Assembly: GCA_000002445.1 (NCBI GenBank)
Contig: CP000071.1
Location: forward strand, 2,240,001 to 2,304,000
From: Trypanosoma brucei
Taxonomy: Eukaryota
Direction: 5' to 3'
Length of the DNA stretch: 64,000 bases
Shown here: positions 36,481 through 64,000 of the stretch, piece by piece
Numbering within the stretch: the stretch's first letter is position 1
How the letters are laid out: the number at the start of each line of letters is the position of its first letter
Notes under the pieces: generated by a model
Seen by the model: the letters and a program-made list of their open reading frames with translations, nothing else
Database searches by the model: none
What the model was told of the DNA's origin: nothing
Made by a program: the position numbers and the translations under genes

Positions 36481-39400
36481 GTGAGTTTCCTCTTCAACCT
36501 CGATCCTTATTTTGTCTGTGTTCTTTTTCTTTCTTTGTTTTTTTGTTTTTTTGTTTTTTCCTTCTTTTTTCCTTTTTTGTTTTTTTTTGTTTTTCGTGTC
36601 TTTCTTTCTTTCTTTGATTATATATCCTTCTTTCACTCTGTCATTACTTTTTGTTTTTTTTGATTCTTCTTTTTGGCTTCCCTGCGTTGTCGTTAAATCA
36701 GGTTTGCGTGTTTGTGTGTTACCTTCATTTCTTTTGCTGTTTTGTTTTGTTTTTTGTTTTTTGTTTTTCACGATTATCACCGTTCCTTTCCCGTAGTTTC
36801 GCAGCAGCGTCTCTGCATTGCTCCCACGGGGTGAACATCATTGCGCAGTCACGCTACTGCTTTGTGTATCCAAAGAGAAAAAAAAATCTTTTTTCTTCTT
36901 ATTTATTTATTGCACCGTGAAGGGCTCCTTATGAGTTTTCCCCACGGCATTGAGTCAGTTTATGTAAAACACCCCCTCCCCAAAAAAAAAAAAAAAGAAG
37001 AAAAAAAGAAAAGAAAATGAAATGAAAACAAATAAACAAATAAACGAAAAAAAAAAGCAACAACAACAACAGCAACGACAGAGGGAAAAGTGCGAACGAA
37101 AGAGCGATATGAGAATGGATGAGGAAAAAGAAAAAAGGAGGAAAAGAAAAAGGAGGAAGGAACAAAACACGATGAAAATATGTGTTTTTTTTTTTTGGTT
37201 TCCTCTACTTTTCCCCCTTCCTTCCTTTATTTTTTTCTCATTTTTTTTTCCTTTCATCTTTTTTTTTTTATTTAATTTAAAACAAGAAAAAAAAAACAAA
37301 TGAAATATCAAATGCGTACGAAAAAGAGAAAAAAAAAGCAAAAGGGAAAAAGGTAAAAGGATGAGGGAAGTGAATAAGAAAGAGGGATGGAAGGAGGAGG
37401 AGGAGAAAGGAGCAAAAAAAAAAAAAAAGAAAGAAAAGAAAAAGAAAAGGGGAAATAAAATGAGGTGTGAATTTGACATGAATTTTATTTTTTTTTCTCT
37501 CTTTCTCTTTTTCTCTCTTCTCTCTCCTCTTTTTTTTTTTCGTACTTTTGTTTCTTTTTCCTGTTTTTTTTTTGTTTCTTCATGTTTTATCTTCACGTTA
37601 TCCATTTTTACCCATTTTATCCACTTATCCTTTTTTTTGTTTTACCCATTTTTACCCATTTGCCTCTTTTTTTTTCTTTCTATTTTGGTTTTGGAGTGTT
37701 GTCGCCCGTTGTTTTCTTTTTCTTTTTTTTGTTTTTGTTTTTGTTTGTTTTTGATTTTCCCTCCTTTTCCTTAACTAATTTCCTTTCCCCCCACCTCTTT
37801 TTTTTATTTTTATTTGCTTAACTTTTGATATTTCCAGACCCTTCCCTCTTTTCCTCATTTATAATTATATAATAATTATCTCTCTGTGTGTGTGTGTTTT
37901 TTTTTCTTTCTTTTTTTTTTTGGTGTTTTGCTTGATTTTTGGTTGGGGCTCTTAATTTAAAATGTTTGATTTGATTGAATGAAACCGCGACCGTTCCTGT
38001 TCGCGTTTTTGCGTTTTTGCGTGTTTGTGTGAGATAAAAGGAGAGGGGTAACAAAAAAAAAATAATAATTAAATATAAATATATACATTAAAAAGAAGAG
38101 AAAAAGTGAGTGAGTGAGTGGAGTGAGTGGAGTGAGTGAAACAAAGCCGCCAAGTGCGCCCGTTTTTTTGTTTTTTTTTGTTGTTTTTTTTTGTTTTGTT
38201 TCGGTGAGACGGGGGAGGGGGGAAAAAAAAAAAGGAAGAAAGGAAGAGAGACACAAACACACACACAAACACACACATCCAGAAAAAAAAAACAAAATGA
38301 AATGAGATGTATTATTATGGGGGCGGGAGGGGGTGGGGGATGGAGATATATGACCACTAATATAAATGATATTGTAAATATAAATAAATAAACACATATA
38401 TGTATTTTTATTTATATATATTTATATATATATTTGTATGTATTTATTTATTTATAATATATGCGTGTGTTTGTGTGTGTGTGTGTGTGTCTGTGAATCA
38501 CAAATGAAAAAATAAGTTAAGTGGATAAGAGAAAAGAGAAAAAAAAAGAGAAAAAAAAGTAANNNNNNNNNNNNNNNNNNNNNNNNNNNNNNNNNNNNNN
38601 NNNNNNNNNNNNNNNNNNNNNNCACAAATGCACGTATTTTTGGTCCCTTCATTTTGTTCTTTGTTTTTTTTTTATTTTGTGTTTTTAAATTATTTTGTTG
38701 CCTTTCAACGAGCGATGACAGAAGGGGAAGGAGAAATAAGAGGAGCAACTGTTATTTATCTCCAACACGTGTTTGTTGTTGTTTTGTTTTTAAAAATATA
38801 TTTACATATATATATTGTTCCTTCCTGTCGTAATGCGTTGTCATGAACTTTTTTTTGTTTTTTGTTGTTTTATTTTTCCCCTTCGTATGTGTGTTTGTGT
38901 TTGCTTGTGTCTTTCCGTCTATTCATTCTTTTTCTTATTTCCATTTTTTGTTTATTTTATACAACTTCCGCTCTGACGTGAAGGGACTTGAGCTTCCACA
39001 TGCGCATGCATTTATTTTATTTTTATTTTTATTTTCGTTATTTTTATTATTATTATTATTGCTGTTGTTGTTGTTGCTACCACTTCCGATTCCGCCGCTG
39101 AGTGTCTTTTTTTTTTTTTACTTCTTTTTTTTTTCCTTACGTGTGCGTGTGATTTTACGCGTGTGTAAATGAGGCCCCATTTGTTTTTTTCCCTCCTCAT
39201 TTTTACGTTTTACTTCTTTACTTGCTTTTTTTTTTTCTACCACTAACTTTAATTTTAATTTTTCTTTTTTTTCTTTTGGTGTGTGTGTCTTCTTTTTTCT
39301 TTGTTTTTAATTGAATATCGTCCCACTTTGTTTTTTTGTTTTGTGTTACTTCTAATTTTTCCTTTCCTTTTCTTTTTTTTTTGTTTAACCCCAACGGCAA

Positions 39401-49186: not shown

Positions 49187-50843
49187 TTATTTATTTTTTT
49201 GTTTTTGTCTTTTCATCATTCTATCGTGAACAGTTCCATAAGCAAACCAGCAGAGTGAAGTTCTTTTTTTTTTTTCTGTGGGAGTACATTGCCAGTGAGC
49301 TTGCGCGTGTAGGGGGAGGAGGGGGGCGCTATGAGCCGTACGACATCTGTGGAAATACCGCTTGAGGAATAACATATGCTCACGTGTACGCATGTGTGGG
49401 ATTCATTGAAGACAATTCTAATGTTTCTTTCACTTTTTTTTTCTTCTTTCTTTCTTTCTCAGAAAATTCTTTTTAGACCCTCCATTTTTGTTTTGTTTTG
49501 TTTTTACCTACCTACCTACCTACATACCGCTTCGCGCACGTATTCATATAACATTTGCCGTGTCGTTGATGTTTTGATTTCTTAACCCTTTTCATAGTTA
49601 ACACCATTGTTATTGTTATTGTTATTATTATTTATTTTTATTTTTTTGACGCTCTTACTGTTGTTATTGCTGACTTTGCCTGTGGTTCTGTTGCCACCGC
49701 TCCTTTTCCTTAATATTTTTTTTTCCTCTTGTTTTTGAATCCACCGTTTAACATCAGTGTACAGGTGGAGAGGTGCGAAGGGGCCTTCTGTTACATTTCC
49801 CCACTTTTTTTTTCCCGTTTCAAAGCATGGTGGATGTAACAGGTTCCTTCTTACATCTTCTTTTTTTTTTTTGAGAAAAAACAATCAACTAAACAAGTTA
49901 AATTGTAATAATGATAATAATAATAATAGTAACAATAATATTTATTTATTTTCCCCCTTTTCCCCTTTCCTCCCCCTCTTGTATTATTTTGCGCGTTTCA
50001 TGCGTTTGCTTAACTTTCATTGAAGGGGAATTTCTGCACATCTGCGGAGGTGGGTCAGTGAATAGTTAATTAGATATTTCAAAGGGAAACTACGGGAAAT
50101 AAGCGAATGAACCAAAGAAAGAAAAAGAAGGGGAAAAGGTGAGGGGGAGGGAGCAGTGGTAAAATAATAATAATAATAATATATGTACTTAATAAAAGGC
50201 AATGAGAAAGCGGAATCATGTCTGATATTCATTTGGGAAAGAAGGTGCGCGTGCATGTGTGCGTATAAATATTAATCTAAATAATAATGATGATAATAAT
50301 GATAATAATTGTTATTAATGTCATTTTTTTTATGCTTTACTTCAGTGTATCGTCCCCACATCATTAATAGTAACAAATTATCACCGTTGTATTTGCTATT
50401 TTTTTTTTAAACTTAAAGCAGCTGAAGCACGATGCCGGTCTTACGGTAAAACTGTACATGCTATATTTTTAAGAAACGAAGAGAGAGAGAGAGAGAAAAA
50501 AAAGTATTTTGCCTTCAATTGTTGTTTTCTGCGACATGTCTGCGCAAGGAGCATGTTCCATTTGTTCATGTAGCATCTCAATTACTCTTCTTATAGTAGT
50601 TGGGTTCGGTTACCTCTTCATTCGCATTACTTCTTTCTGCAACTCATGACATAATGATCATCATCAGTTCAATCTGGTAATTCATATTATTAACATTATT
50701 GTTTCCACTCTATTCCTCATGTTTTCTTCAAGCTTTCCGGGAATCGGATTAAAACCAGGGAAAGACGTGACTTACCTTGGGTGTGCGTGTGTGTGTGTGC
50801 GTTTGTGTTTGTGTGTTTGTGGGTAGTGCTTAGTGAATTTAAT

Positions 50844-53810
50844 ATGAATCGCTTCCAACGGAGTGACGAAACGCTTTCATCATCTGCGAGCGGGCAAAGA
50901 GCTCGACGGTCAACTACAGGGGGTCTCGAGAACAGCATCAGCATCAGCTACGGCACGGATATCACCAGAAGCACAAGTAGCAAAGCAATCAGAAGAAGAA
51001 GAAGTAATCTCACCGTTCCCAGTGGGACTGGTCATTTTAGCTGCACCCGAACCCGGATTCCTAATAATACTTGTTTAAGGAGAAGCAGCTTTCCATCGGG
51101 TAATACACCCCTACGGGCTGACCGAACACCGAGTCCGAAAAGTCTCAAGCGGCAGAAGGTGCGGCTCCACGTAGTTAAGCCTCTGCTGCAAAGCAGCCAT
51201 AACACCCGTTTGATTGTAAATGATAGCGTTTGTACTGGTACTGATACTAAGGCCAATGGTGACAGCGATACGAAGTGTGATGTTAACGATATCAGTTTAT
51301 GCAGCACTAGTGTTGTTGATGCACCGCCAATAGGGCCAGAGGAGGGGACCGCTTACCAACAGCAGGAAAATCTTACGCTGAATGATGTGGAGGAGTTACG
51401 CCGCCGCCGAGAACAACTACGGTACGGCGTTGACACATCACTTGCGCGCATTGCAGAATTGAAACTGTTAACGCAGGCGTTCCGTTTAGATCAAAGAGGC
51501 ACCGATGGCGGGGACGGTGAAGCTCTCAACGCTGCATCCAGTGCTGAGATCAGTAACAGTGCCCTCCTTAATAGCACGGAAAATGAGGCCAGTGTAACTT
51601 CGAAGAGTCTGGCAATTGAGGGAGAGGAATGGGGTAGAGAGGAGGATACCCTATTACTACTAAAAGTTGCTGAGGAGGAGTATGAAGAGCTTAGATTGCA
51701 ACTGACTTTGGCGTGCGCTTCCCTTTCTGCTGTCCCACAAACCTTGTGGACTGACATTCGGAGGTTTCGCCAGCCACCCCCTGCTGTGGCTGCCGTTGTT
51801 GATGCCGTCTTGATACTTTTAGGCCTCCCACAAAGCAGACACCGACGGCTGGGGCTTGGAAATGGGGGATGGCCCAACTTTCCTCAGCAGCTTATACAGT
51901 GTGACCCGCTGGCCACTTATCAAAAAATAATGGGTATTGCTGATTGTGAGTCGTGGATGAATGGCGTTTCGCGTATGGGTGAGCTTGAACATTTTTTGTG
52001 CCACTGGACTCATCTCCGCGTCTCACGTGTGCACCCGACTTTGGGTCCACTGCACCAGTGGGTTAAGACAATGGTTGACGCCAGCCGGGCAGCCGGAAGG
52101 TTGGAGGCTCTTAGAGATGCATCAAGCGCTAAACAAATTGCAACTGTAGCCGGCAGAGGGATACTGCTGCGTGAGCTGGAGGAAAATGAGGAGTACGTTC
52201 AGCTTGCGCAGGAGGAGATAGCCGCTATCGACGCATTGGTTGCGGATGTAGTTGCATTCGGTGTGGCGGGTCCAGCTATTAGTTCGGGTGCTGCCGTCTC
52301 GGAAGAAAAGAGGAATCTCGCGGAACCGGCCGAGGCTTACGGGGAGCCCTCCGCGCAGAGGTCTGGAGGTCGAGGGCGTGCAGGGAAGGGGGTGAGTTGG
52401 AGTGCAGAGGTGTCCAATGCCAATTCTCTTCCTCTTGTTTCTGGGACAGAGCAACGGGTTACTACGGCAGGGACGGGGCGGAGGAGGAAAGATATTGTCA
52501 TCCCTGCTCTCAACTTTGCCGATTGCTTGCCTTCGTTCCCTCATGCGGAGCAGGGGCCGCTGTCGTTGCGTGAGCGATTTGAGAGGATTCGTACGTCTTC
52601 GTTATGCCATAGTCCTCGGGCTGGTCCCATCAGCCATGTTGAAGGTAGTCCCTCACGTGGTAATTTCGGTAGCGTAACGGAGATTGCAAATTCCATTGGA
52701 AATGTGAGTTTCCTGACCACCGCCCGTGCGCTTCGTGATAGAGAGAACCTACTGATGCGCGTCCACCAGCTGGAAGAACAGTTGAATGAAATTTGCGGCA
52801 GCAAGCCAAAAGAAGTGGAACTCGTTCTGTTGCGTGACGAGCTGGCTGCAGCACAGGAAGAGATTAGCAGGCTGCGGGCAGAGCGGGATGAGCTTGAACA
52901 GCGGGCTAAGCGTCGTGACACCTATTACAAACCTTCCTCTCCACGAGGGGGGTGCATTAAGGGGTTGGATGAAGAACTAGCCGGCGCGGATGAGATTTCA
53001 TCGGCGGGCGCGTCGAAGGAGAAAGCTGCGGATGGTTCAGGGGATGCCATGACGGTAATGATGCTGGAACAACAGTTGTTGACCGCTCATGCCCGCATAC
53101 AACACCTAGAGGCTACTGTTGTAGGGCTGACTTCAGATGAAGGCACGCAATGCACATCGGTAAGTGGTAGTGGCAATGACTCACCGGAGGCTCCATATGA
53201 CAATTCCAATCGACCTTCAGCTTTCGCCGCATCTGGCCTCGGTATCACCATTGCTGGCGGCCCGGGGGAGGTACCGTTTCTTCAGCGCCGCATAGATGAA
53301 ATGCAACGAATTTTGGAGATGCAAGAGCGTGCTGTCAATGATGCGGAGGAGAGGCTCAATAATGAAATGCACGCTAAGAATGAGGCATACGAGCAGGTGC
53401 GTCAGCTACAGGCAGAGCTCCGCAGCGTATGGCAGCAACTGGAGAACAGCGAGTATCAACTTAAGGTAGCAATGGAGGGCTCGCGCTGTTATTACTGCCG
53501 TGCGGATTTGGATGACCGCGATGCGGGGCATGGTGGTGAAGACATGCGACAACAGCGACGGCGTGAGGCGGTTTGTCAGGAGGAAATCGAGCGCCTTCGC
53601 ATGCAGCTGCGTGACCAAAAACAACGCAGTGTAGAGGAAAGGCGGCGACGACTTGAACTCCGTAAGGTTCGCAGCGCGCTTTTGCTCAAGTTGGAGAATA
53701 CCTTCACTGAGGCCCTGCGGTTGCAAGAGAACGGATCGGAGCGGGCGGCTGCGATATTACAGCCCACCCGTACAGACATGGGTGATAATGTGAACTCGCA
53801 GGAACTTTAG
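50844..53810 (+). CDS. Coiled-coil protein (about 988 aa) with the same dynein-stalk-like block. Paralogue of the CDS at 46234.
   Basis: The track ORF starts at GTG in a GT-rich repeat (50781). The first ATG at 50844 gives MNRFQRSDE... Block LWTDIRRFRQPPPAVAAVVDAVLILLGL...W....LIQCDPLATYQKI...LHQWVKTMVDASR aligns with the CDS at 46234 (EIRCYRNPPAIVRLVVEAVFAVLGE). It is extensively coiled-coil, e.g. LLRDELAAAQEEISRLRAERDELEQRAKRRD. Confidence 0.8.
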   Translation: MNRFQRSDETLSSSASGQRARRSTTGGLENSISISYGTDITRSTSSKAIRRRRSNLTVPSGTGHFSCTRTRIPNNTCLRRSSFPSGNTPLRADRTPSPKSLKRQKVRLHVVKPLLQSSHNTRLIVNDSVCTGTDTKANGDSDTKCDVNDISLCSTSVVDAPPIGPEEGTAYQQQENLTLNDVEELRRRREQLRYGVDTSLARIAELKLLTQAFRLDQRGTDGGDGEALNAASSAEISNSALLNSTENEASVTSKSLAIEGEEWGREEDTLLLLKVAEEEYEELRLQLTLACASLSAVPQTLWTDIRRFRQPPPAVAAVVDAVLILLGLPQSRHRRLGLGNGGWPNFPQQLIQCDPLATYQKIMGIADCESWMNGVSRMGELEHFLCHWTHLRVSRVHPTLGPLHQWVKTMVDASRAAGRLEALRDASSAKQIATVAGRGILLRELEENEEYVQLAQEEIAAIDALVADVVAFGVAGPAISSGAAVSEEKRNLAEPAEAYGEPSAQRSGGRGRAGKGVSWSAEVSNANSLPLVSGTEQRVTTAGTGRRRKDIVIPALNFADCLPSFPHAEQGPLSLRERFERIRTSSLCHSPRAGPISHVEGSPSRGNFGSVTEIANSIGNVSFLTTARALRDRENLLMRVHQLEEQLNEICGSKPKEVELVLLRDELAAAQEEISRLRAERDELEQRAKRRDTYYKPSSPRGGCIKGLDEELAGADEISSAGASKEKAADGSGDAMTVMMLEQQLLTAHARIQHLEATVVGLTSDEGTQCTSVSGSGNDSPEAPYDNSNRPSAFAASGLGITIAGGPGEVPFLQRRIDEMQRILEMQERAVNDAEERLNNEMHAKNEAYEQVRQLQAELRSVWQQLENSEYQLKVAMEGSRCYYCRADLDDRDAGHGGEDMRQQRRREAVCQEEIERLRMQLRDQKQRSVEERRRRLELRKVRSALLLKLENTFTEALRLQENGSERAAAILQPTRTDMGDNVNSQEL

Positions 53811-54350
53811 AGTAAAATTCAAAAAAAAAAGCAACTAGAAGTAGCCTTAACAGTAAGAGAAAATGAGGAACAGAGAGAGCAAGAGAAAGTTTCCTTTTTT
53901 TTTAAAGAAAAAAGAGGAAAGGAAAGAGGCGCATGAATAAGTAAGTTAGGTTGGGGAGGATTCATGTCAGGTGAATAGCGCAGCGGGCATGTATATATAA
54001 ATATATATATATATATACATATATGCATGTGTGCACATCCCGTAGCGTCATTGGTACCAGTGGGAACGAATTACATTATTGAAGGATCAGGTGCCCCTAA
54101 GTAGCCGAGGGGACGTGTCGCAAATGTGCTTAAGGTACTTCATTCCCATTTTGTTTTGTTTTTATGTTTTTTTTTATTTTCCCCTTTTTGTTTAATTTCT
54201 AACACCTCTCTTCAATCCTTTTCTGCCTACAGTGGATATGAGGTAATAATAACCTTGTTTGTGGAGGAGGGAATTTATACGCCGTATCGACTGTAGGCGC
54301 TGTGCAACGGTAAAAAATAAAAAAACAAAAAAAAACAAAAAGGACGTGCA

Positions 54351-54395
54351 TGTTTGTGTGTTTGTACCCGTGTGTGTGTGTGTGTGTTTGTGTTG
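54351..54395. repeat. (GT)n / GTTT-interrupted repeat
   Basis: The run gtgtgtttgtacccgtgtgtgtgtgtgtgtgtttgtgttgg is read directly from the sequence. Confidence 0.85.
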
Positions 54396-57300
54396 GAGGT
54401 TTGCGGTATGCAGTTTCTTGTCTTTTTGTTTTTGTATTCCTTCCTACTCCTGATTCGTTAAATTATTGTTTTTTAAAAAAAGTTTGCTTATTCACTCCAG
54501 CACGCTATAAAGCTTTACTTTCTTATTATTGTTATTATTACTTATGCTATTGTTATTATTGTTTGTCACTCGCAAGTAAATATAAATAGGTGCATCTCTA
54601 TATAATTATTGAATCAAGTTTCTGTTTAGTACTTCATTTATGCAGTGATATGATGAATATTTTGGGTTAAAAAGAGTGAAAAGAAGTGAAAAAGAGAAGG
54701 AAGAAGTGGCATAGAGAAGCATACAAGAAAAGAGCTAAAATAAATAAAAATAAAGTAAAATAGCAATAGAAGCGAAAGAAAAGAGAAAAGATATCATTAA
54801 AGAAAAAAGGAAAGAAAAAAAAGAAAAAGAAAAGAAAGAAGGAAGACCAGGAAGTTGTTTTTAAATGGTGTGAGAGATGCAAGAAGAAAAAAAAACATTT
54901 TCTTTTTTTTTTTTTACACATAGAGTCACAATGCATGTGCCATAACAAACGCAACCGCACACCCACAAACAAGAACATGCGCATATACGCAAAACTGAAG
55001 AAATAAAGGGAACTTTTTGTATTCGCAAGTATATAACATATATATATATATATATATGAGTTAATATATGTGTACAATATTATTATTATTATTTTTACTA
55101 TTCTTATTTACTGCTATTATTGTTGACGTCGTGGTTTGGAGGTTAAAGAAAGCAAAAGAGAAAGAAGGAGAGAGAGAAAGAGAGAGGAAAAAAAAAGAAA
55201 ATGAGAACGAAGAACAACAACAACAACAACAACAACAACAAAATAATAATAACAATAATAATAATAACAGATAAAAAACGAAGGATGAGCAAACGATGTG
55301 GCGGCTGCAACTACGCCTTGAGTTCCTGGTGTTCGTGTTGGAACCCGCGTGTGAAATGCAAAAAACAAAAAAAAAAAAAAGAAAACAAATGGAAAAATAA
55401 AACAATAATAATATTACTTTTTCTTTTTTCTTTTTTTTGTTTGCGGGTGCCACTGGGACCAGTGAGGGTGCGGCTACTGATTGAATTATTGTACCTAAAC
55501 AGTTTTTTTTTCTTTTCTTTTCTTTTCTTTTTTCGTTGTTTTGTGTGGCACGTAATGATCGCGACGATATTTTTATTGTTTTCATTATTATTGCTTTAAA
55601 TCATTAATAGAGGCATAAAAAGTTTGTTATATTTGTATATGTTTGTAATAAAAGCAAAGAAAAAAAAATGAAATAGATAAATAATAGAGAGTGGGATGAG
55701 AGAAGTAGTATCAAACGACATTTTCTTTTCTTTTTTGTTTTTTTGTTTTTTTTCTAAATTTAAAAAGAAGAAATTCTTCCATTATAATGGGAGGTTGAGC
55801 AAAGCAGAGCGGAGCGAACCAGACTGAAAATCCAAAGCAAAGAAAAAAAAAAGAAACAAGCAACAAAAATGAAACCGATGAGAAAGAGGAGGAAAATATT
55901 GTGTTTTGTTTTGTTTTTCTCCTTTTTTTTTGTTTTTCAGAAATCAAATCGGTTTCATATGAATATATACAAGTGTATATATATGTGTATGTCTATATGT
56001 TTGTATGTTTGTATGCTGATTCCTTTTGTATCCCAATTTCTTTTTTTTCTTTTTTTTAAAATTTGATTCGTTATTTCCTCACTGATTTTTCTCCCCCCTT
56101 TGTTAGATATTTAATTTAGCTTAATTCATTTTTATCATCATCATCATCATTGTTACAAACGTTTCTTTAGAGAAGAAGGGGAGAAGCAGAAACGAGAGGA
56201 ATTCTTTTATTAAGAGAGAAGAAAAACAAAGAAGAAAGGAACAATGATCTTTTGAATTATACTGCGTGTTTTTGTTGTTTTTTGTTGTTTTATTCCATTT
56301 TTTTTATTTGGTTTTTATTCCATGTTTCAAGTTTTTAGCCGTGCAATAACAGCGATAACAACAAAATTTAAAAAAAAAACCATTGAAGCACAGTTGAAGT
56401 AAAATGCTTACGACGGGGAACATAAATAACCTTAAAGGGAACGATTCTCTGTAGGGCAAACGCACGTATGGATTGTAATCATTTGGGAGTTACCCGAGAG
56501 CTTAACCTAAAAAAAGAGGAAAAAAAAGAGGAAAAAGAAAAGAAAAATCAGTCACCTGTGAGTGCCACGTCATGTCATGTGATTATCCGCCTTTTTCTTC
56601 TTTTCTTTTTTCCGGTTTCCTTTTCCTTTCCTTTTCCTTTATTTATGTCTGTGTGTGCGTTGGTGTGAAATTAATCCAAATCAGTTTGTAGGCCTCTTTT
56701 TTTTTTTCTTTTCTATTTTCTGTCTCCTTCTTCCGTTTTGAAAGTTTTACTCCTCTCATTTTCCTACTCGATACTTGTACTTCAACGGCGCGTCGCTGTT
56801 AACACTCTGGTCAATCCGCTATGGCGCTTGCTTTTGTCCTTTTTTTTTCTTTATTTCCCTCTTTCGTTTTCTTTATCTTACCTTATTTCTCAACGTCGTC
56901 ATTATCTGTTTATTCTTTTCTATCTTCTTCTTTTAACTACGTGTGTTAATTGCATTAGTTTATAAGTGCAGGCATAATGGTTGCATCATAGAAAAATAAT
57001 TGTGATGCCGACATGAGATTGAGGTGCGTGGTGTTGTAAAATGTTAAACTTTTAAATTCATCATCATCACTGAAGCAAACGGGTGTATCTAGTTGCAAAC
57101 ATTTTCTCTGTAGCTCCGCTGTTAGATGAGGATACACAAAGCAAGCAAATGAAAATGTGACCGAATGAATCCAACATGTTTAAGTTGAAGCAACCCACGG
57201 AAACATTTTTGTTTCAATATGTGAGGGGAGAAATATCACAGATTTCGATTAACTTCAGCTCAAATTCAACATGCAGATGACAGTTGAGCACGCGTGCTGA

Positions 57301-58374
57301 GGCAAGAAGAAAAGGGGAAAAATCTCTGAATTATATAACGGTTTCGATTGCGGCTGCTGTTTTGATCTTCCGTGAGAATGTTACGGAGCTCAACCACATT
57401 TCTTGTTTTTTTCCTTTTTTCTTTTTTAGCATGGCACGAATGAAGACATGAGTGTAATGCCATTTGAGACGATAGGTTAGGCTTGCAGGGCGTTCTGAGG
57501 GTTGTAATTCTTTCCATCTCGTCTTGCATCCTTCCTTATTGATTATACCACATCGCCTTAAAGCCATATACTTCCACGTGCCATATTTCCTTCACGTGTG
57601 GTGTTCTCACCGGTAACACTTTCGCGCGGTGTCATATTTGAGCACATCCCGGAAATATGACATCATTTAACTGAGGAAAGGAAAAATATTCATGCTGACA
57701 ATGGCTTTTAAGGCTTGTTATGCCCTCTGCGTTAGTGATGAAAGTGAGAGCAATTTAATGATATTCACTTTCGCAGATCCTCTGGCACTGAGATGAAGTT
57801 TACCGCTCTTTCCTTGATGTTATCGGTTTTAGGATGAAAAGAGAAGACGCATTTGTGCTCGCATAACAGAAAATATAAAAAAAAACATGCCACGACTGAC
57901 ATATTAATAATATGTAAGCAACCGTGCAAACGAGGGGCAAGATAGGTTTGACTCGCATTTATGCCCACTGGGAAGGGAACCTCCCAGGGATTGTTCCCAC
58001 CATTGCGTGGGGAAGCGGAAGACACTGCAAATGTCTCCAAACCCCAATGCACACCAGCGAAAAAATATAAAAAAGGGAGAGTCTTGAGATCAAGTTGGGA
58101 GGGAACTCATCAGGAAGGCAAGCCACTGGATGGGAGAGGGATGACCAAAAAAGAAACACTGCAAATACACATCAAAAACGCATTTGCGCCGTCCACACCG
58201 TCCTCAATATTGTGAATTGCCGCCGCCGACCTGTCCTTCAATTCCTTTTCACATTTCTGTGTAACTGCTCGACGGGTTTTGTGGAGATGTGCGCCCATTT
58301 GACGGTCTCAACTAAGCATTGAGCCGCCCCTCGAGTACGCAATCTCCTTTACACCATACGTAATGCTGCAATTT

Positions 58375-58454
58375 CTTCTTATAAGTCCCTGTTGCTTACA
58401 GTATTGTTGTCTATTATCATTATTATCATTATTCTCTCATTTCTCTTCTTTAAG
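58375..58454 (+). promoter_or_regulatory. Polypyrimidine tract plus TTAAG acceptor for the adenylate cyclase gene. The 5'UTR would be about 34 nt.
   Basis: tcttcttataagtccctgttgcttacagtattgttgtctattatcattattatcattattctctcatttctcttctttaag lies directly upstream of the ATG at 58489. The same element is duplicated at 63345-63401 before the second copy. Confidence 0.6.
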
Positions 58455-58488
58455 ACTTACGAATTCCTCAAGTCAAGTCACCAGTGTT

Positions 58489-61400
58489 ATGGCTTCCTTC
58501 ATGCGTCTTGTTACTCCACTTGGCGCTGCAGTGGCTTGCAGTCATCTCCTCATGGTTGTGTTACCGCTGCTGTTACTTATTCCTGGTTTATGTGCTGATA
58601 AAGACTGTAACAGTAGCAGTGTAACGGTGAGGGTGTATAATTTGTTGTACAGCTCCGACATATCAAAGACAACCTATGAACCCGTCATTGCTGGTTTCAA
58701 TGCCTCGCTACATGCGCATAATGATGATTTGCCGGCAAATGTGTGCATAGAGGTCGAACATGTTCATGCCAGAAGCGATGAGGATTACGTCTCATATTTA
58801 AAGAATAAAATTGATGGAGACGCTGCTGTACAAAATAAGAGTGAACTGCCCATTGTGCTGGGGCCTGTTGGTGATGAGACTACTCTCCATCTCACCAGGG
58901 AACTTGAGAAGTTTGAAATAGTGGCCTTTTCTCCCTTTACTGGATCTTCGGATGTGCGTGTGTGGAAAAAGAGTCTGTACTTCCTTACGGCATCGCCTAT
59001 TGCACAGGTGCTTGCACTAATTCGTTATGCTGTGAGTCAATTGAGGCTTCAGCGACTGGGTTTTATGTACCTGAAGGGCGTTTCTTTCGGCGATAAGGAG
59101 TATAAGCTGACACTTAAGGTAATGTCGATTATGGGCCGTAAATTGTGCGGTGTTTTCGAATTAGACAGCTCTACTGATGGAAGGGCTTCTGATGATGATT
59201 TTGAGGCTGCATGGAAAAGGTTTGCTCCCACGATGCCACAAGGTGTAATTGTGTTTGGTTCGCCAATTGAGGATACGAAGAGGTTCCTGATGAAGTTTTT
59301 AGGGAGCAATGAATTGAGAGGTGCTTACATATTAATTCCTTCTATGCTTCAATATGTTATTATAAACAGTTGGATGAAGGAGTTGGCCGTAAAGAATTTT
59401 GTGCCTGAGAGAGTGATACTGACGGGTCCGAGTCCACTTGCAAATGATAATGAATACATAGCAGTACGGAAGTTTCAGACTGTCATGGGGAAGTACCTGG
59501 AAACAAATGGGAAACTTAATGGTCACAATTATGAAAAGGGTCACTTTTACGATCACCGTACTGACGGAGAATTGATGGTGCACGGATGGATTGTGGGCGA
59601 GGTCTTGTGGCGTACACTGGGAAGTCGTGAATCGCTGAAAAACCGTACAACTTACATTAACTCTCTGTACAACCAGCGTCGGTATGTTATCGATGATCTT
59701 GTGATTGGTGATTTTGGTGGTGAATGTGAGGGGAAGGCTGGTCAGCGTGGAGCTGCATGCAAATGTAATCAAGGTGGAAATGTTGTTTACATGAAGAGGA
59801 TGGGAACTGATCGGAATCTACATCCTGTGAAGGAGGGTGTAGTGACTCTCGCTTCATCACGCTGCTATACGAATCTCTTACAACTGTATGCCCCATTGAA
59901 TGGTATAATGTTTCGACTAGAAGACAATCCATTGGCGCAGCGGATTACAGAGGAATATCGCGATGGCGCCTCCCTCGTTGTTGGAAAGGGCCAATTGGGT
60001 CAAGGTGATCGCTTCTTTTTGCATGAACTGAATTCGACATCGAGTGCAACAAAGCACAACATGTTAGAGGAGGTTAAAGAGCGTGTTGTGACGGCTGTGT
60101 TCGGTGTTGTGGATGATGCGCTACTGTCGATGACAGATATGACATTTATTGATCCCATTCCTCTCAGTCCCAGGTTGAAACACCCCGGAAGGAATGCGTT
60201 GCATTTGTCTCCAACAATTGAGCAGCAGATTTTTGTAATGGTGGAGCGTGTTGTGGTTCCGAATTCCTGGGGGAGTGTGCATGCCATTGTTCGCAGTAGT
60301 GATGCACGTGGAATAAAATCTGTTCTTCGAAAGACTTTTTGGGCACTTGGTGGGTCGCTGGGTGCTTTCGACGAAGTTACCGACGGTGAAAGTGTGAAGA
60401 GTTTGTTACCGCATAGCGGTTTCGTTCTCGTTATTGGTCTAACTGAAGCTGATATTACTGCAATTGCTGAGCATCTTGACAATCACAGGGAAGTGCGTGT
60501 ATTTGCGTTATTCTTCGATGTGGCACTGCTGTACAGTGAGTTTGTGAAGGTATTCAAAAAGCATCCGCAAGCTGCCGAGCGGTTACTATTCGCAACAAGC
60601 CTACCACACTGGGCAGACAACAATACGACATCCGAGACGGTTCAGGAATTTCACAGGGACGTGGGGAATGAGAGTAAATGGACTCCACTGGCGCTACTTG
60701 GGTACGCGACCGCACGTGCAATGGAAAGTGTTGTGTTGCAAATGGGGCGTGTGAACTCAGAAGAGCTTATCAACACTATATTCAGTCAGTCTGTAATTGT
60801 AGCGGATGACATGTGGTATGGACCCTTTGAGGACAGTTGTTCCAATAGCCGCTGGTCATCAGCGAAAGACTGCATTGTGAATTACGGTGCGACACATATT
60901 TCCGTGTGGTCCATGGCTCGTGTGTTGAATCCTTCCGTACCTCCTGTTCGTGGAGTAGCAACACCATCAATACGTTACTACAAAGATGGATTGAATATGA
61001 CTGAGGAAGAATTTATTGGCACAATTGTGGGTACCATTTTGTGTTTGATAGCACTTGTGCTGATAGTAATGCTTATGCGGAAATGTATGCGTGGGGATAC
61101 TCGCGATAACGAGAACGCACCAAGAGAATTGACAGACCCCGTAACGCTAATATTCACTGACATCGAGAGCAGCACTGCGCAGTGGGCAGCACACCCTGAG
61201 CTTATGCCTGATGCCGTTGCAACACATCACCGCCTAATTCGCACATTGATTTCCAAGTATGGATGCTATGAAGTGAAGACTGTTGGAGATTCTTTTATGA
61301 TTGCATGCAAGAGCCCTTTCGCTGCTACGCAATTAGCGTGTGACATGCAACGATGCTTTTTAGAACATGATTGGAAGACTGATGTGTTTGATACGTCTTA

Positions 61401-62259
61401 TCGTGAGTTTGAGCGGCAGCGTGCGGAAGATGATGGGGATTATGTTCCACCCACTGGCCATCTTGACCCTGATGTTTACAGTCGGTTGTGGAATGGACTG
61501 CGAGTGCGTGTTGGAATTCACACCGGGTTGTGTGATATTCGGCATGATGAAGTGACGAAAGGATATGACTTTTACGGTCGTACATCGAATATGGCAGCAC
61601 GGACTGAGAGCATTGCTAATGGCGGGCAGGTGCTGTTGACACGTCCGACATACCTTTCATTGAGTGCTTCGGAGCGTGAGCAATTAAATGTGACTGCATT
61701 GGGTGATGTGCCATTGCGTGGTGTACCCAAACCTGTGGAGATGTACCAATTGAATGCGGTACCCGGAAGGACATTTACTACACTGCGACTTGACCATGAG
61801 GTTGCTGATGACGAAGATACGAGTGTTTCTTGCAGTGATGGGAGTTCCATTGGTGCAGTTCTCAGTGATGCCGCTTATCAGGTTGTTGCTTGCGTTGAAG
61901 CACTACTTGGTGCATTCCCCACTGCGCAGCGTAAGAAATTACTTATGCCATTTTGTAACCGATGGGGAGTTTCGTTACCTTATAATGTTTCTGATACGTG
62001 GGATGCAACCACGTGCCGTAATGTTACTCGCCTGCTTGCCGCGAGGGTTGGTCGTGTTGTGGATTTTGGGACGAAGAATACTCATGACAGTGTACAATTC
62101 TCTGAAAGACGCTCGGGAACTTTTCCGTCCAGGTTAGCTGCCGCTGTTGATCTTGTAAGCATCCCTTCAACTTCTACCTGTATTCAATCCAGCTGCAGTA
62201 TTATATATATGAATGTGCCAGATGATGATGATACCAGCAAATATTCCCCTAAGCATTGA
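58489..62259 (+). CDS. GRESAG4: Receptor-type adenylate cyclase (GRESAG4/ESAG4 family), about 1256 aa: signal peptide, large extracellular domain, single TM, class III cyclase catalytic domain
   Basis: The N-terminus MASFMRLVTPLGAAVACSHLLMVVLPLLLLIPGLCA is signal-peptide-like. The TM helix is IGTIVGTILCLIALVLIVMLM (about 61020-61080). The catalytic core is LIFTDIESSTAQWAAHPE...YEVKTVGDSFMIA...GLRVRVGIHTGL...DFYGRTSNMAARTES...GGQVLLT (about 61141-61750), matching class III nucleotidyl cyclase motifs and trypanosome GRESAG4. The track ORF start at 58363 lies in the polypyrimidine tract, so the Met at 58489 is preferred; it is conserved in copy 2. Confidence 0.9.
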   Translation: MASFMRLVTPLGAAVACSHLLMVVLPLLLLIPGLCADKDCNSSSVTVRVYNLLYSSDISKTTYEPVIAGFNASLHAHNDDLPANVCIEVEHVHARSDEDYVSYLKNKIDGDAAVQNKSELPIVLGPVGDETTLHLTRELEKFEIVAFSPFTGSSDVRVWKKSLYFLTASPIAQVLALIRYAVSQLRLQRLGFMYLKGVSFGDKEYKLTLKVMSIMGRKLCGVFELDSSTDGRASDDDFEAAWKRFAPTMPQGVIVFGSPIEDTKRFLMKFLGSNELRGAYILIPSMLQYVIINSWMKELAVKNFVPERVILTGPSPLANDNEYIAVRKFQTVMGKYLETNGKLNGHNYEKGHFYDHRTDGELMVHGWIVGEVLWRTLGSRESLKNRTTYINSLYNQRRYVIDDLVIGDFGGECEGKAGQRGAACKCNQGGNVVYMKRMGTDRNLHPVKEGVVTLASSRCYTNLLQLYAPLNGIMFRLEDNPLAQRITEEYRDGASLVVGKGQLGQGDRFFLHELNSTSSATKHNMLEEVKERVVTAVFGVVDDALLSMTDMTFIDPIPLSPRLKHPGRNALHLSPTIEQQIFVMVERVVVPNSWGSVHAIVRSSDARGIKSVLRKTFWALGGSLGAFDEVTDGESVKSLLPHSGFVLVIGLTEADITAIAEHLDNHREVRVFALFFDVALLYSEFVKVFKKHPQAAERLLFATSLPHWADNNTTSETVQEFHRDVGNESKWTPLALLGYATARAMESVVLQMGRVNSEELINTIFSQSVIVADDMWYGPFEDSCSNSRWSSAKDCIVNYGATHISVWSMARVLNPSVPPVRGVATPSIRYYKDGLNMTEEEFIGTIVGTILCLIALVLIVMLMRKCMRGDTRDNENAPRELTDPVTLIFTDIESSTAQWAAHPELMPDAVATHHRLIRTLISKYGCYEVKTVGDSFMIACKSPFAATQLACDMQRCFLEHDWKTDVFDTSYREFERQRAEDDGDYVPPTGHLDPDVYSRLWNGLRVRVGIHTGLCDIRHDEVTKGYDFYGRTSNMAARTESIANGGQVLLTRPTYLSLSASEREQLNVTALGDVPLRGVPKPVEMYQLNAVPGRTFTTLRLDHEVADDEDTSVSCSDGSSIGAVLSDAAYQVVACVEALLGAFPTAQRKKLLMPFCNRWGVSLPYNVSDTWDATTCRNVTRLLAARVGRVVDFGTKNTHDSVQFSERRSGTFPSRLAAAVDLVSIPSTSTCIQSSCSIIYMNVPDDDDTSKYSPKH

Positions 62260-63013
62260 AATATGTGTCCATTATTGCCAGAATAATTGGATAAGGTTCA
62301 ATACATGATCTGTGCATGTTTCTTGTTCGATATTGGATGTTTTCGATAATATTCTTTTTAGGTTATATTTTCCACTTCTATGTATGCGCAGCATCCTCCT
62401 CACATGTTGGGTGCTTTCCATATTCGTGTGTTCCGCTTAGCTAGTGATTAAAGCACTTATTGAAGCAAACCCACTTTTCGTTTGTTGTTATAAAGTGGGG
62501 GATGTACTTATTTTCTCCATACTCTCACTGTGTGAAGCGTTATTTTTCTTGTTTCCCACTTCCGGTGAGCGGGTGTCAGGCAAAATGCACTGACCTCCTA
62601 TATTAATGAAAATCGATGCATTCCCGTGCTGGACAGATAAGCCATCGTATTATTAACTTCTAATGTTGCTGTTGGTACAACATATCACTGTTGTTCACTT
62701 TGCTTTCCTTTACTATTATATTGAAATGGATTATTGTTTTTTTCTTTTTGTGTGCATATATCTGTATATGTGTTTCGATATACCGTCACCACTCTACCAC
62801 GTTGATGGATTGGGGAATGGCTACTGATTGATTAATGCATGGTTTTATGTCACTTTAATAACAGCATTGTATTCCATGATGGCTTTCAGCAACTGACCCT
62901 TGTGTACAATTTCCTGTTTATTTCCCTCTACTGACACAAATCTTTTTTACTAATATCTTTTCCTTCTTTTATCACTTTCCAGGACTTGACAAGCCAAATA
63001 TGTGAGGCTGGCT

Positions 63014-63287
63014 ATTGCATTCGGAAGGACATTTGCTACACTGCGACTTAACCATGAGGTTGCTGATGACGAAGATACGAGTGTTTCTTGCAGTGATGGG
63101 AGTTCCATTGGTGCAATTCTCAGTGATGCCGCTCATCAGGCCGTTGCTTTTATTGAAGCACTACTTGGTGCATTCCCTACTGCGCAGCGTAAGAAATTAC
63201 TTATGCCATTTTGTAACCGATGGGGAGTTTCGGCGCCTTATAATGTTTCTGATACGTGGGATGCAACCACGTGCCGTAATGTTACAG
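63014..63287 (+). pseudogene. Internal fragment of the GRESAG4 C-terminal cytoplasmic region (about 91 codons) embedded in the spacer between two GRESAG4 copies
   Basis: About 95% nucleotide identity to 61762-62035 of copy 1 (TLRLNHEVADDEDTSVSCSDGSSIGAILSDAAHQAVAFIEALLGAFPTAQRKKLLMPFCNRWGVSAPYNVSDTWDATTCRNVT). It lacks upstream and downstream gene context and joins abruptly at 63288 to unrelated sequence, then at 63345 to the upstream-region repeat. Confidence 0.75.
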
Positions 63288-63435
63288 TCACTTGTGTGTA
63301 ATTGAATTTCAACTGCACTCTCTTCTGCTCCCTTTCGTGCCCTTACTTTATTGTTGTCTATTATCATTATTATCATTATTCTCTCATTTCTCTTCTTTAA
63401 GACTTACGAATTCCTCAAGTCAAGTCACCAGTGTT

Positions 63436-64000
63436 ATGGCTTCCTTCATGCGTCTTGTTACTCCACTTGGCGCTGCAGTGGCTTGCAGTCATCTCCTCAT
63501 GGTTGTGTTACCGCTGCTGTTACTTATTCCTGGTTTATGTGCTGATAAAGACTGTAACAGTAGCAGTGTAACGGTGAGGGTGTATAATTTGTTGTACAGC
63601 TCCGACATATCAAAGACAACCTATGAACCCGTCATTGCTGGTTTCAATGCCTCGCTACATGCGCATAATGATGATTTGCCGGCAAATGTGTGCATAGAGG
63701 TCGAGCATGTTCATGCCAGAAGCGATGAGGATTACGTCTCATATTTAAAGAATAAAATTGATGGAGATGCTGCTGTACAAAATAAGAGTGAACTGCCCAT
63801 TGTGCTGGGACCTGTTGGTGATGAGACTACTCTCCATCTCACCAGGGAACTTGAGAAGTTTGAAATAGTGGCCTTTTCTCCCTTTACTGGATCTTCGGAT
63901 GTGCGTGTGTGGAAAAAGAGTCTGTACTTCCTTACGGCATCGCCTGTTGCAGAGGTGCTTGCACTAATTCGTTATGCTGTGAGTCAATTGAGGCTTCAGC
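63436..64000 (+). CDS. GRESAG4: Second receptor-type adenylate cyclase (GRESAG4) copy, 5' partial within the window
   Basis: 63345-64000 duplicates 58398-59053 (polypyrimidine tract, 5'UTR, ATG, signal peptide and start of the extracellular domain) with a few substitutions, e.g. ASPVAEVLALIRY versus ASPIAQVLALIRY. The ORF is open to the window end. Confidence 0.85.
   Translation, partial: MASFMRLVTPLGAAVACSHLLMVVLPLLLLIPGLCADKDCNSSSVTVRVYNLLYSSDISKTTYEPVIAGFNASLHAHNDDLPANVCIEVEHVHARSDEDYVSYLKNKIDGDAAVQNKSELPIVLGPVGDETTLHLTRELEKFEIVAFSPFTGSSDVRVWKKSLYFLTASPVAEVLALIRYAVSQLRLQ

What the first reader, a model, noticed from the sequence alone, without database searches (positions are those of the whole stretch)
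58489..64000. A GRESAG4 adenylate-cyclase tandem array carries an in-frame internal gene fragment in the inter-copy spacer
- Copy 1 (58489-62259) is complete.
- The spacer to copy 2 (62260-63435) contains a 274-bp piece (63014-63287) that is about 95% identical to 61762-62035 of copy 1. That region lies just after the cyclase catalytic core (TLRL[DN]HEVADDEDTSVSCSDGSSIGA...TTCRNVT).
- The fragment ends abruptly at 63288.
- At 63345 the sequence re-enters a near-perfect duplicate of the copy-1 upstream processing region plus gene start (58398 onward).
- The fragment retains an open frame with only conservative substitutions, so it is recent.
- This looks like a recombination or gene-conversion scar and marks the repeat-unit boundary.
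- It could seed segmental gene conversion among cyclase paralogues, which would generate diversity in their cytoplasmic tails.
- The two copies also already differ in the extracellular domain (AQ versus VAE).
Basis: seen in the sequence. Interest (0 to 1): 0.5.

Follow-up and report, generated by a model that had tools for sequence, protein, structure and literature searches.

The report
Cyclase gene fragment in array spacer
A 264-base piece of the adenylate-cyclase coding sequence sits in the spacer between tandem GRESAG4 genes of Trypanosoma brucei chromosome 8; it is an old, conserved part of the repeat unit that recombines with the real genes, which makes it an ordinary by-product of a gene array already known for concerted evolution.

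Summary
Window 63022-63285 matches 61764-62027 of copy 1 (264 nt, 95.1%), with sharp ends and no other cyclase remnant in the spacer. The tandem repeat restarts at 63342 (= 58395; unit 4947 bp).

The window is T. b. brucei TREU927 chromosome 8, 2,240,001-2,304,000. Copy 1 is Tb927.8.7860, the first gene of published array "80a".

The fragment is neither recent nor a one-off scar. The same piece, with identical junctions, lies in every internal spacer I could read: two in T. b. gambiense DAL972 and two in T. b. equiperdum. It is absent from the paralogous chromosome 4 array. It is therefore part of the repeat unit and not an assembly artefact.

It does exchange sequence with the genes:
- Variants are shared in a mosaic pattern, and 10 of 28 site pairs fail the four-gamete test.
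- The TREU927 fragment is more diverged than its flanks.
- Its "HQAVAFIE" block occurs in the TREU927 paralogue P0001.
- T. b. equiperdum carries the 1255-bp duplication expected from unequal crossover between fragment and coding sequence.

The open frame is uninformative, and the substitutions look neutral. Published mapping puts the copy 1 poly(A) site upstream of the fragment.

Verdict: a pseudogene fragment acting as an ectopic homology block. Low novelty.

The parts
58363..62259 (+). Copy 1 of the array, Tb927.8.7860 (AAZ13547/XP_847613, 1298 aa as annotated). The real coding sequence most likely starts at ATG 58489 (1256 aa).
   Evidence: The ORF is identical to P0076. Pfam finds PF25495, PF25493 and PF00211. 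Kolev 2010 Table S1 gives the ORF as Tb927_08_v4 2298363-2302259 and maps the 5'-most SL site inside it at 2298485, which is window 58485.
58395..63341 (+). First tandem repeat unit (4947 bp): 94-nt upstream/5' leader region, coding sequence, 3' UTR, spacer-specific DNA, fragment, and a 56-nt tail.
   Evidence: 58395-59053 = 63342-64000 at 98.9%. Sequence left of 58395 is not repeated.
61764..62027 (+). The coding-sequence segment homologous to the fragment. It is aa 1135-1222 in 1298-aa numbering and begins 3-4 codons after the catalytic domain (Pfam 922-1131).
62260..62856 (+). 3' UTR of copy 1, up to the 3'-most mapped poly(A) site.
   Evidence: Kolev 2010 Table S1 gives the transcript 3' end as 2302856, which is window 62856. 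The fragment lies 166 nt beyond it.
62260..62423 (+). The part of the spacer that is also found downstream of the divergent terminal copy in T. b. gambiense. The array homology ends at this right-hand boundary.
   Evidence: L002 15230-15389 matches at about 90%. Nothing beyond 62423 matches.
62424..63021 (+). Spacer-specific DNA of unknown origin. It ends in a polypyrimidine tract (about 62910-62980) plus AG (62981-62982), followed by 39 nt that abut the fragment.
   Evidence: No match elsewhere in the window, in the cyclase protein, in the chromosome 8 singleton locus, in the chromosome 4 array or downstream of the array. Sequence read. From 62660 onward it is conserved at 98-100% in all spacers.
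63022..63285 (+). The fragment: 264 nt of cyclase coding sequence, in sense orientation, with no start codon and no catalytic domain.
   Evidence: 95.1% identical to 61764-62027. Identical junctions in five other spacer copies in two other genomes.
63002..63301 (+). The cyclase-frame ORF that runs through the fragment (99 codons from a GTG, ending ...CRNVTVTCV*).
   Evidence: Openness is expected by chance (P = 0.63).
63054..63305 (+). The +1-frame ATG ORF (83 codons) inside the fragment. The same frame is open for 113-127 codons in the coding-sequence copies.
   Evidence: No evidence of expression.
63286..63341 (+). 56-nt spacer-specific tail between the fragment and the unit start. It is the beginning of the second polypyrimidine tract.
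   Evidence: 98-100% conserved in the other normal (non-hybrid) spacers. Not significantly similar to the region upstream of copy 1.
63342..64000 (+). Start of unit 2: polypyrimidine tract, predicted SL acceptor AG at 63430-63431, and the copy 2 ATG at 63436. Its translation matches the N-terminus of P0083/AAZ13548.

Best explanation
The 264-nt piece is a pseudogene fragment that became fixed in the inter-copy spacer of the chromosome 8 GRESAG4 array (Tb927.8.7860 onward) before, or during, amplification of the array. It is now copied with every repeat unit.

**What is shown**
- It has no protein-coding or RNA role that I could detect.
- It provides 264 bp of sense-oriented homology, 1258 bp downstream of its coding-sequence counterpart.
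- It is therefore a partner in homologous recombination with the cyclase genes, in two ways. Short-tract gene conversion moves variants between the fragment and the post-catalytic tail of the coding copies, and keeps the fragment 95-99% identical to them. Unequal crossover between fragment and coding sequence adds, or would remove, a 1.26-kb 'tail plus 3' UTR' partial unit.

**What is inferred**
- How the fragment was first inserted is unknown. The junctions are sharp, with no poly(A), no target-site duplication and no significant microhomology.
- The direction of the conversion events is also inferred, not shown.
For: 1. **Part of the unit.** The same fragment with the same 5' junction (...GCATT|CGGAAGG) and 3' junction (GTTAC|AGTCAC) is found in T. 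b. gambiense DAL972 spacers 1 and 2 (L001 14939-15202 and 19905-20168) and in T. b. equiperdum spacers (L004 15208-15471 and 20178-20441).
2. **Specific to this array.** The spacers of the paralogous chromosome 4 array (558 bp) contain no coding-sequence fragment. Neither do the flanks of the chromosome 8 singleton cyclase.
3. **Exchange with the genes.**
   - No site is a fixed difference between fragments and coding copies.
   - 10 of 28 informative site pairs fail the four-gamete test within 264 nt.
   - The codon TCA (Ser) is shared by coding copies and fragments in both T. b. gambiense and T. b. equiperdum, and is absent from the TREU927 sequences seen here. A TGT codon and the Asn variant are shared only by T. 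b. equiperdum coding copy 1 and its adjacent fragments.
   - The TREU927 fragment differs from its T. b. gambiense orthologue at 12/264 sites, against 3/418 in the flanking spacer (Fisher p = 0.002).
   - Its block HQAVAFIE is identical in TREU927 paralogue P0001, and AFIE also occurs in P0082. SAP occurs in P0081 and in the divergent terminal T. b. gambiense copy.
4. **Unequal crossover product.** In T. b. equiperdum spacer 1, a hybrid (L004 13954-14217) has the fragment's 5' junction but continues into the coding-sequence tail, a second stop codon and a second spacer. This duplicates 1255 bp at 1252/1255 identity.
5. **Published background.** Array 80a shows recombination (PHI p<0.001, 10-11 breakpoints; PMC2854126). 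Its concerted evolution is strong enough that T. b. brucei and T. b. gambiense copies are reciprocally monophyletic (PMC1855330).
6. **No sign of other function.** There is no Rfam or tRNA hit and no Pfam hit for the ORF. Substitutions look neutral. The copy 1 mRNA ends at 62856, before the fragment. No new transcript was called in the array spacers.
Against: - Only three genomes, six fragments and six coding segments were available. DNA of TREU927 copies 3-8 could not be fetched, so the HQAVAFIE/AFIE sharing is seen at protein level only.
- Shared variants could partly be ancestral polymorphism sorted among units, rather than fragment-to-gene conversion.
- The T. b. equiperdum duplication comes from a single long-read assembly with many indel errors, and was not checked against reads.
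- The absence of a transcript in the 2010 data is weak evidence, because reads from repeated DNA map ambiguously.
Confidence: 0.75

Rival explanations
1. One reading: a recent, one-off recombination or gene-conversion scar in this particular spacer.
For: 95% identity and an intact frame. Position close to the unit boundary.
Against: Identical junctions in all four normal spacers, plus the 5' junction in the hybrid, in two other subspecies. High identity is explained by concerted evolution. The open frame is expected by chance.
Confidence: 0.03
2. An assembly mis-join or collapsed repeat in TREU927.
For: Tandem arrays are hard to assemble. The window holds a 60-N gap elsewhere, at 38563-38622.
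Against: The same structure appears in the independently sequenced DAL972 genome and in a T. b. equiperdum long-read assembly. The junctions are conserved to the base.
Confidence: 0.01
3. An inert relic only. The fragment is carried passively with the unit and does not really exchange with the genes. Shared variants would then be ancestral polymorphism, and the T. b. equiperdum duplication an artefact.
For: Small sample. Direction of transfer not shown. Part of the evidence is protein-level only.
Against: Lineage-private variants are shared between neighbouring coding copy and fragment. Differences cluster in the fragment relative to its flanks. There are four-gamete failures. The duplication period of 1255 bp equals the fragment-to-coding-sequence distance.
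Confidence: 0.13
4. A functional RNA-level element. The polypyrimidine tract plus AG at 62910-62982 would drive trans-splicing just upstream of the fragment. Internal copies would then get a long leader carrying upstream ORFs (uORFs), or a small separate RNA or peptide (the 83-codon +1-frame ORF) would be made.
For: The copy 1 poly(A) site at 62856 lies about 125 nt upstream of that AG. This is the usual spacing for coupled polyadenylation and trans-splicing (the spacing rule is from general knowledge). The +1 frame is the longest alternative-frame open run in the cyclase and is open in all 12 copies.
Against: No new transcript was listed in the spacers. The ATG of the +1 ORF is absent from the divergent terminal copy. 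The fragment is less conserved than its flanks. No family hits.
Confidence: 0.08

Closest known systems
T. brucei tandem gene array 80a (GRESAG4, Tb927.8.7860 onward), described by Jackson 2007 and Jackson et al. 2010
   Same: This is the same locus. Mosaic sequences, recombination breakpoints and concerted evolution among the copies are already published.
   Different: Those analyses, as far as I read them, treat the coding copies and UTRs. I found no mention of a coding-sequence fragment in the internal spacer or of its role as a recombination partner.
Truncated or fragmentary receptor adenylate cyclase genes in T. brucei (Durante et al. 2020; Tb927.8.7880 is annotated as a pseudogene)
   Same: A partial cyclase sequence in a chromosome-level assembly, taken as a sign of rapid rearrangement.
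   Different: This one is only 88 codons. It lies inside the spacer, is repeated once per unit and is conserved across subspecies.
Pseudogene-mediated segmental gene conversion, as in mosaic VSG formation in trypanosomes or the human RCCX module (CYP21A1P/CYP21A2) (from general knowledge)
   Same: A non-functional partial copy near functional paralogues supplies or receives short conversion tracts and mediates unequal crossover.
   Different: No evidence of selection for diversity here. The region affected is a cytoplasmic tail, not a surface epitope. Donor direction is not established.
Templated insertions at duplication junctions (FoSTeS/MMBIR-type events) (from general knowledge)
   Same: A short stretch copied from nearby sequence, sitting close to a tandem-duplication junction.
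   Different: No significant microhomology at either junction. About 600 nt of unrelated spacer-specific DNA also sits beside it, so the origin remains unresolved.

Membership tests
Functional receptor-type adenylate cyclase gene (GRESAG4) | Extracellular periplasmic-binding-like domains, a transmembrane helix, a class III cyclase catalytic domain, and a start codon downstream of an SL acceptor | tested here: not met
   Copy 1 has all the domains. The fragment covers only aa 1135-1222, after the catalytic domain, gives no Pfam hit and has no in-frame ATG at its start.
Component of the tandem repeat unit | Present at the same position, with the same junctions, in successive internal spacers and in orthologous arrays | tested here: met
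   Window spacer 1, T. b. gambiense spacers 1 and 2, and T. b. equiperdum spacers 1 and 2. The other TREU927 spacers could not be read.
Gene-conversion / unequal-crossover partner of the coding copies | Mosaic sharing of variants, phylogenetic incompatibility within the segment, and recombinant structures with a period equal to the fragment-to-coding-sequence distance | tested here: met
   10/28 four-gamete failures. Lineage-private variants shared by coding copy and fragment. Excess divergence against flanks, p = 0.002. The T. b. equiperdum 1255-bp hybrid duplication. The direction of transfer is not resolved.
Processed (retroposed) pseudogene | Spliced-leader remnant at the 5' end, poly(A) tract at the 3' end, and flanking target-site duplication | tested here: not met
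   The flanks read show no A-run after 63285, no SL-like sequence before 63022 and no direct repeat around the insert.
Assembly artefact | Structure absent from independent assemblies | tested here: not met
   Present in DAL972 and in the T. b. equiperdum assembly.
Independent cistron / small ORF or non-coding RNA | Its own SL acceptor and poly(A) site with a detected transcript, a conserved ORF or RNA structure, and constraint | tested here: inconclusive
   A polypyrimidine tract plus AG lies upstream, and the upstream gene's poly(A) site fits it. However, there is no listed transcript, no Rfam hit and no constraint.

The most novel reading that the evidence does not exclude
The fragment is not merely tolerated. 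Either it is kept as a spacer-resident cassette that repeatedly reshuffles the variable block just after the catalytic domain of the array's cyclases. Or it forms part of an alternative long leader, bearing upstream ORFs (uORFs), that makes internal array copies behave differently from the first copy, which alone lacks the fragment upstream.
Probability: 0.08. Interest if true: 0.5.

Novelty: new member of a known kind. Interest (0 to 1): 0.2.

Why it matters
It gives a concrete, base-level example of how a trypanosome tandem array evolves. A short stretch of gene-derived homology in the spacer lets the array gain partial units, as seen in T. b. equiperdum and possibly in TREU927. It also moves variants into the cytoplasmic tail of expressed cyclases.

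This is useful for annotation: the fragment and the tail-only units are pseudogene pieces, not genes. It also matters for read mapping in this family. It does not change what is known about adenylate-cyclase biology or about recombination in trypanosomes.

Tried and rejected
- **Exact-protein look-ups for TREU927 copies**. Not on record, so the rest of the TREU927 array could not be read.
- **Protein search with the 92-aa fragment peptide**. It returned nothing. This reflects the tool's word index, not the biology, since P0076 obviously matches.
- **Origin of the spacer-specific DNA (62424-63021 and 63286-63341).** No match in the window, the cyclase protein, the chromosome 8 singleton locus, the chromosome 4 array or the region downstream of the array.
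- **Hidden homology or microhomology beyond the junctions.** I first thought a CGTAATG motif, and a weak match to the region upstream of copy 1, might mark the junction. Shuffle tests show neither is significant, so I dropped that idea.
- **Non-coding RNA or tRNA in the spacer.** Nothing credible.
- **Splice and poly(A) site tables.** Nilsson 2010 has no entries for these genes, and no supplement is held for Siegel 2010.
- **Alternative +1-frame ORF.** It is open in all copies, but it lacks its ATG in the divergent copy and has no expression evidence. I recorded it as a curiosity only.


Full report
**Identity of the window**

The 1298-aa ORF at 58363-62259 is identical to AAZ13547/XP_847613 of T. 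brucei brucei TREU927. It has the usual receptor adenylate cyclase architecture: PF25495, PF25493 and PF00211.

Kolev et al. 2010 (PMC2936537, Table S1) give Tb927.8.7860 as Tb927_08_v4 2298363-2302259. The window is therefore chromosome 8, 2,240,001-2,304,000.

The same table places the 5'-most spliced-leader (SL) site at window 58485. That is 4 nt before the ATG at 58489, so the annotated start at 58363 is too far upstream. It places the 3'-most poly(A) site at window 62856.

The array is 'array 80a' of Jackson 2007 and Jackson et al. 2010, with 8 annotated copies in T. b. brucei and 4 in T. b. gambiense. The cluster look-up shows five highly similar TREU927 proteins. Tb927.8.7880 is annotated as a pseudogene.

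**The observation**

Self-comparison confirms a 264-nt ungapped match, 63022-63285 against 61764-62027, at 95.1% (E = 6e-118). It also confirms the restart of the tandem repeat at 63342 (= 58395), which is 98.9% identical up to the window end. The unit is 4947 bp.

The fragment is isolated:
- Nothing else in the spacer matches the cyclase at the DNA or protein level.
- The 56-70 nt outside each junction are no more similar to the corresponding gene sequence than shuffled controls.

The fragment corresponds to aa 1135-1222, starting 3-4 codons after the catalytic domain.

**Not recent, and not unique**

The orthologous array of T. b. gambiense DAL972 (L001/L002, FN554971) carries the fragment in both internal spacers. 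T. b. equiperdum (L004, CM010679) carries it in both of its spacers. The 5' and 3' junctions are identical to the base in every case.

The fragment is therefore a constituent of the repeat unit. It is not a scar of one event in one spacer, and it is not an assembly error.

Other loci lack it:
- The paralogous chromosome 4 array (chromosomes 4 and 8 are partial duplicons, PMC2212663) has 558-bp spacers without any coding-sequence fragment.
- The flanks of the chromosome 8 singleton cyclase have none either.

The insertion therefore post-dates the chromosome 4/8 duplication and is specific to this array.

Downstream of the divergent terminal copy in T. b. gambiense, homology to the spacer stops at window 62423. 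So 62424-63341, including the fragment, is found only between copies. The origin of the non-cyclase part of that stretch could not be traced.

**Age and constraint**

The open cyclase frame carries no information. 63% of simulated sequences with 13 random substitutions remain open. 9 of 14 single-nucleotide differences are non-synonymous, against 76% expected at random. There is no sign of purifying selection, and several replacements are not conservative.

**Exchange with the genes**

Across six fragments and six coding segments from three genomes, no site is a fixed difference between the two classes. 10 of 28 informative site pairs fail the four-gamete test.

Variants are shared between coding copies and fragments in a lineage-dependent way:
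- TCA (Ser) occurs in the coding copies and the fragments of both T. b. gambiense and T. b. equiperdum, but not in the TREU927 sequences seen here.
- A TGT codon and the Asn variant occur only in T. b. equiperdum coding copy 1 and its adjacent fragments.

The TREU927 fragment is the outlier. It shows 12/264 differences from its T. b. gambiense orthologue, against 3/418 in the flanking spacer (p = 0.002).

Its distinctive residues occur in other members of the array:
- HQAVAFIE is identical in TREU927 P0001.
- AFIE occurs in P0082.
- SAP occurs in P0081 and in the terminal T. b. gambiense copy.

This pattern fits short-tract conversion in both directions. It is also consistent with the published concerted evolution of this array.

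**Unequal crossover product**

In T. b. equiperdum spacer 1, one fragment copy keeps the fragment's 5' junction. It then runs on through the coding-sequence tail, a second stop codon and a second spacer, before the normal fragment and copy 2. The result is a 1255-bp duplication at 1252/1255 identity.

This is the product expected from crossover between the fragment and the coding segment 1258 bp upstream.

In TREU927, the published start coordinates of Tb927.8.7900 (2314616) and copy 2 (2303436) are 11,180 bp apart. That equals two units plus about 1.26 kb. It suggests a similar partial unit there. This is inference only, because I could not read that DNA.

**RNA processing**

A strong polypyrimidine tract plus AG (about 62910-62982) lies just upstream of the fragment. 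A second tract (63318-63400) precedes copy 2.

The copy 1 poly(A) site at 62856 lies about 125 nt upstream of the first AG. This suggests, from the general coupling of polyadenylation and trans-splicing, that the first tract is recognised.

The fragment is therefore outside the copy 1 mRNA. It lies either in an alternative long leader of copy 2 or in a discarded intergenic RNA. No new transcript was reported in the array spacers. The nearest is Tb8.NT.132, at window 56959-58369.

There are no Rfam or tRNA hits.

**Conclusion**

The 'recent scar' reading is wrong. The suggestion that the fragment can take part in gene conversion is supported.

The thing itself is a pseudogene fragment embedded in the repeat unit. 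It acts as an ectopic homology block in an array already known for recombination and concerted evolution, and in a gene family already noted for abundant fragments. I found no published mention of this particular fragment. It is best described as a new member of a known kind, of low general interest.

Noticed in passing
window 61754-62137 and 63054-63305; same segment in L001, L002, L004: The +1 frame over the fragment region is the longest alternative-frame open run in the whole cyclase coding sequence (127 codons; the next longest is 68). It is open in all 12 copies examined, including the 15%-diverged terminal T. b. gambiense copy, which however lacks the ATG.
   Followed up: partly
L004 12699-15527 (T. 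b. equiperdum CM010679): A 1255-bp tandem duplication (coding-sequence tail + 3' UTR + spacer), 1252/1255 identical. It creates a tail-only partial cyclase unit between copy 1 and copy 2.
   Followed up: yes
TREU927 chr8 2303436-2314616 (beyond the window): Published coordinates put the start of Tb927.8.7900 11,180 bp after the copy 2 ATG. That is two units plus about 1.26 kb, which hints at a tail-only partial unit in TREU927 as well.
   Followed up: partly
window 58363-58488: The annotated start of Tb927.8.7860 (58363) lies upstream of the mapped SL addition site (58485, after AG 58483-58484). The real start is ATG 58489, with a 4-nt leader after the SL.
   Followed up: yes
window 58400-58401 vs 63347-63348: An AG (CTTACAG) is present upstream of copy 1 and in all T. 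b. gambiense and T. b. equiperdum spacers. It reads TT in the TREU927 spacer 1, which removes a possible alternative splice acceptor.
   Followed up: no
window 62418-62650; L001 19279-19428; L004 spacer 2: There are two spacer types. Spacers after copy 2 in T. b. gambiense and T. b. equiperdum carry a different, barely alignable sequence here, and the stop codon TGA reads TGC. That change gives the longer ...KHCNM.PLLPE tail seen in P0001, P0081 and P0082.
   Followed up: partly
L001 about 23560-23628 (third T. b. gambiense copy, P0080): The annotated protein shifts into the +1 frame a few codons before the position where the fragment homology begins, and then stops at a 100-N gap. This may be a sequencing error at a contig end.
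   Followed up: no
window 56959-58369: This corresponds to the published new transcript Tb8.NT.132 (1410 nt), which ends just before the polypyrimidine tract of copy 1. Five further Tb8.NT transcripts (127-131) fall in the window.
   Followed up: no
window 54150-56950: A long intergenic stretch between the 1009-aa ORF (50781-53810) and the array is full of A-rich and T-rich low-complexity tracts, plus (GT)n-like runs at 50767-50835 and 54344-54406.
   Followed up: no
window 38563-38622: A run of 60 N, which is an assembly gap.
   Followed up: no
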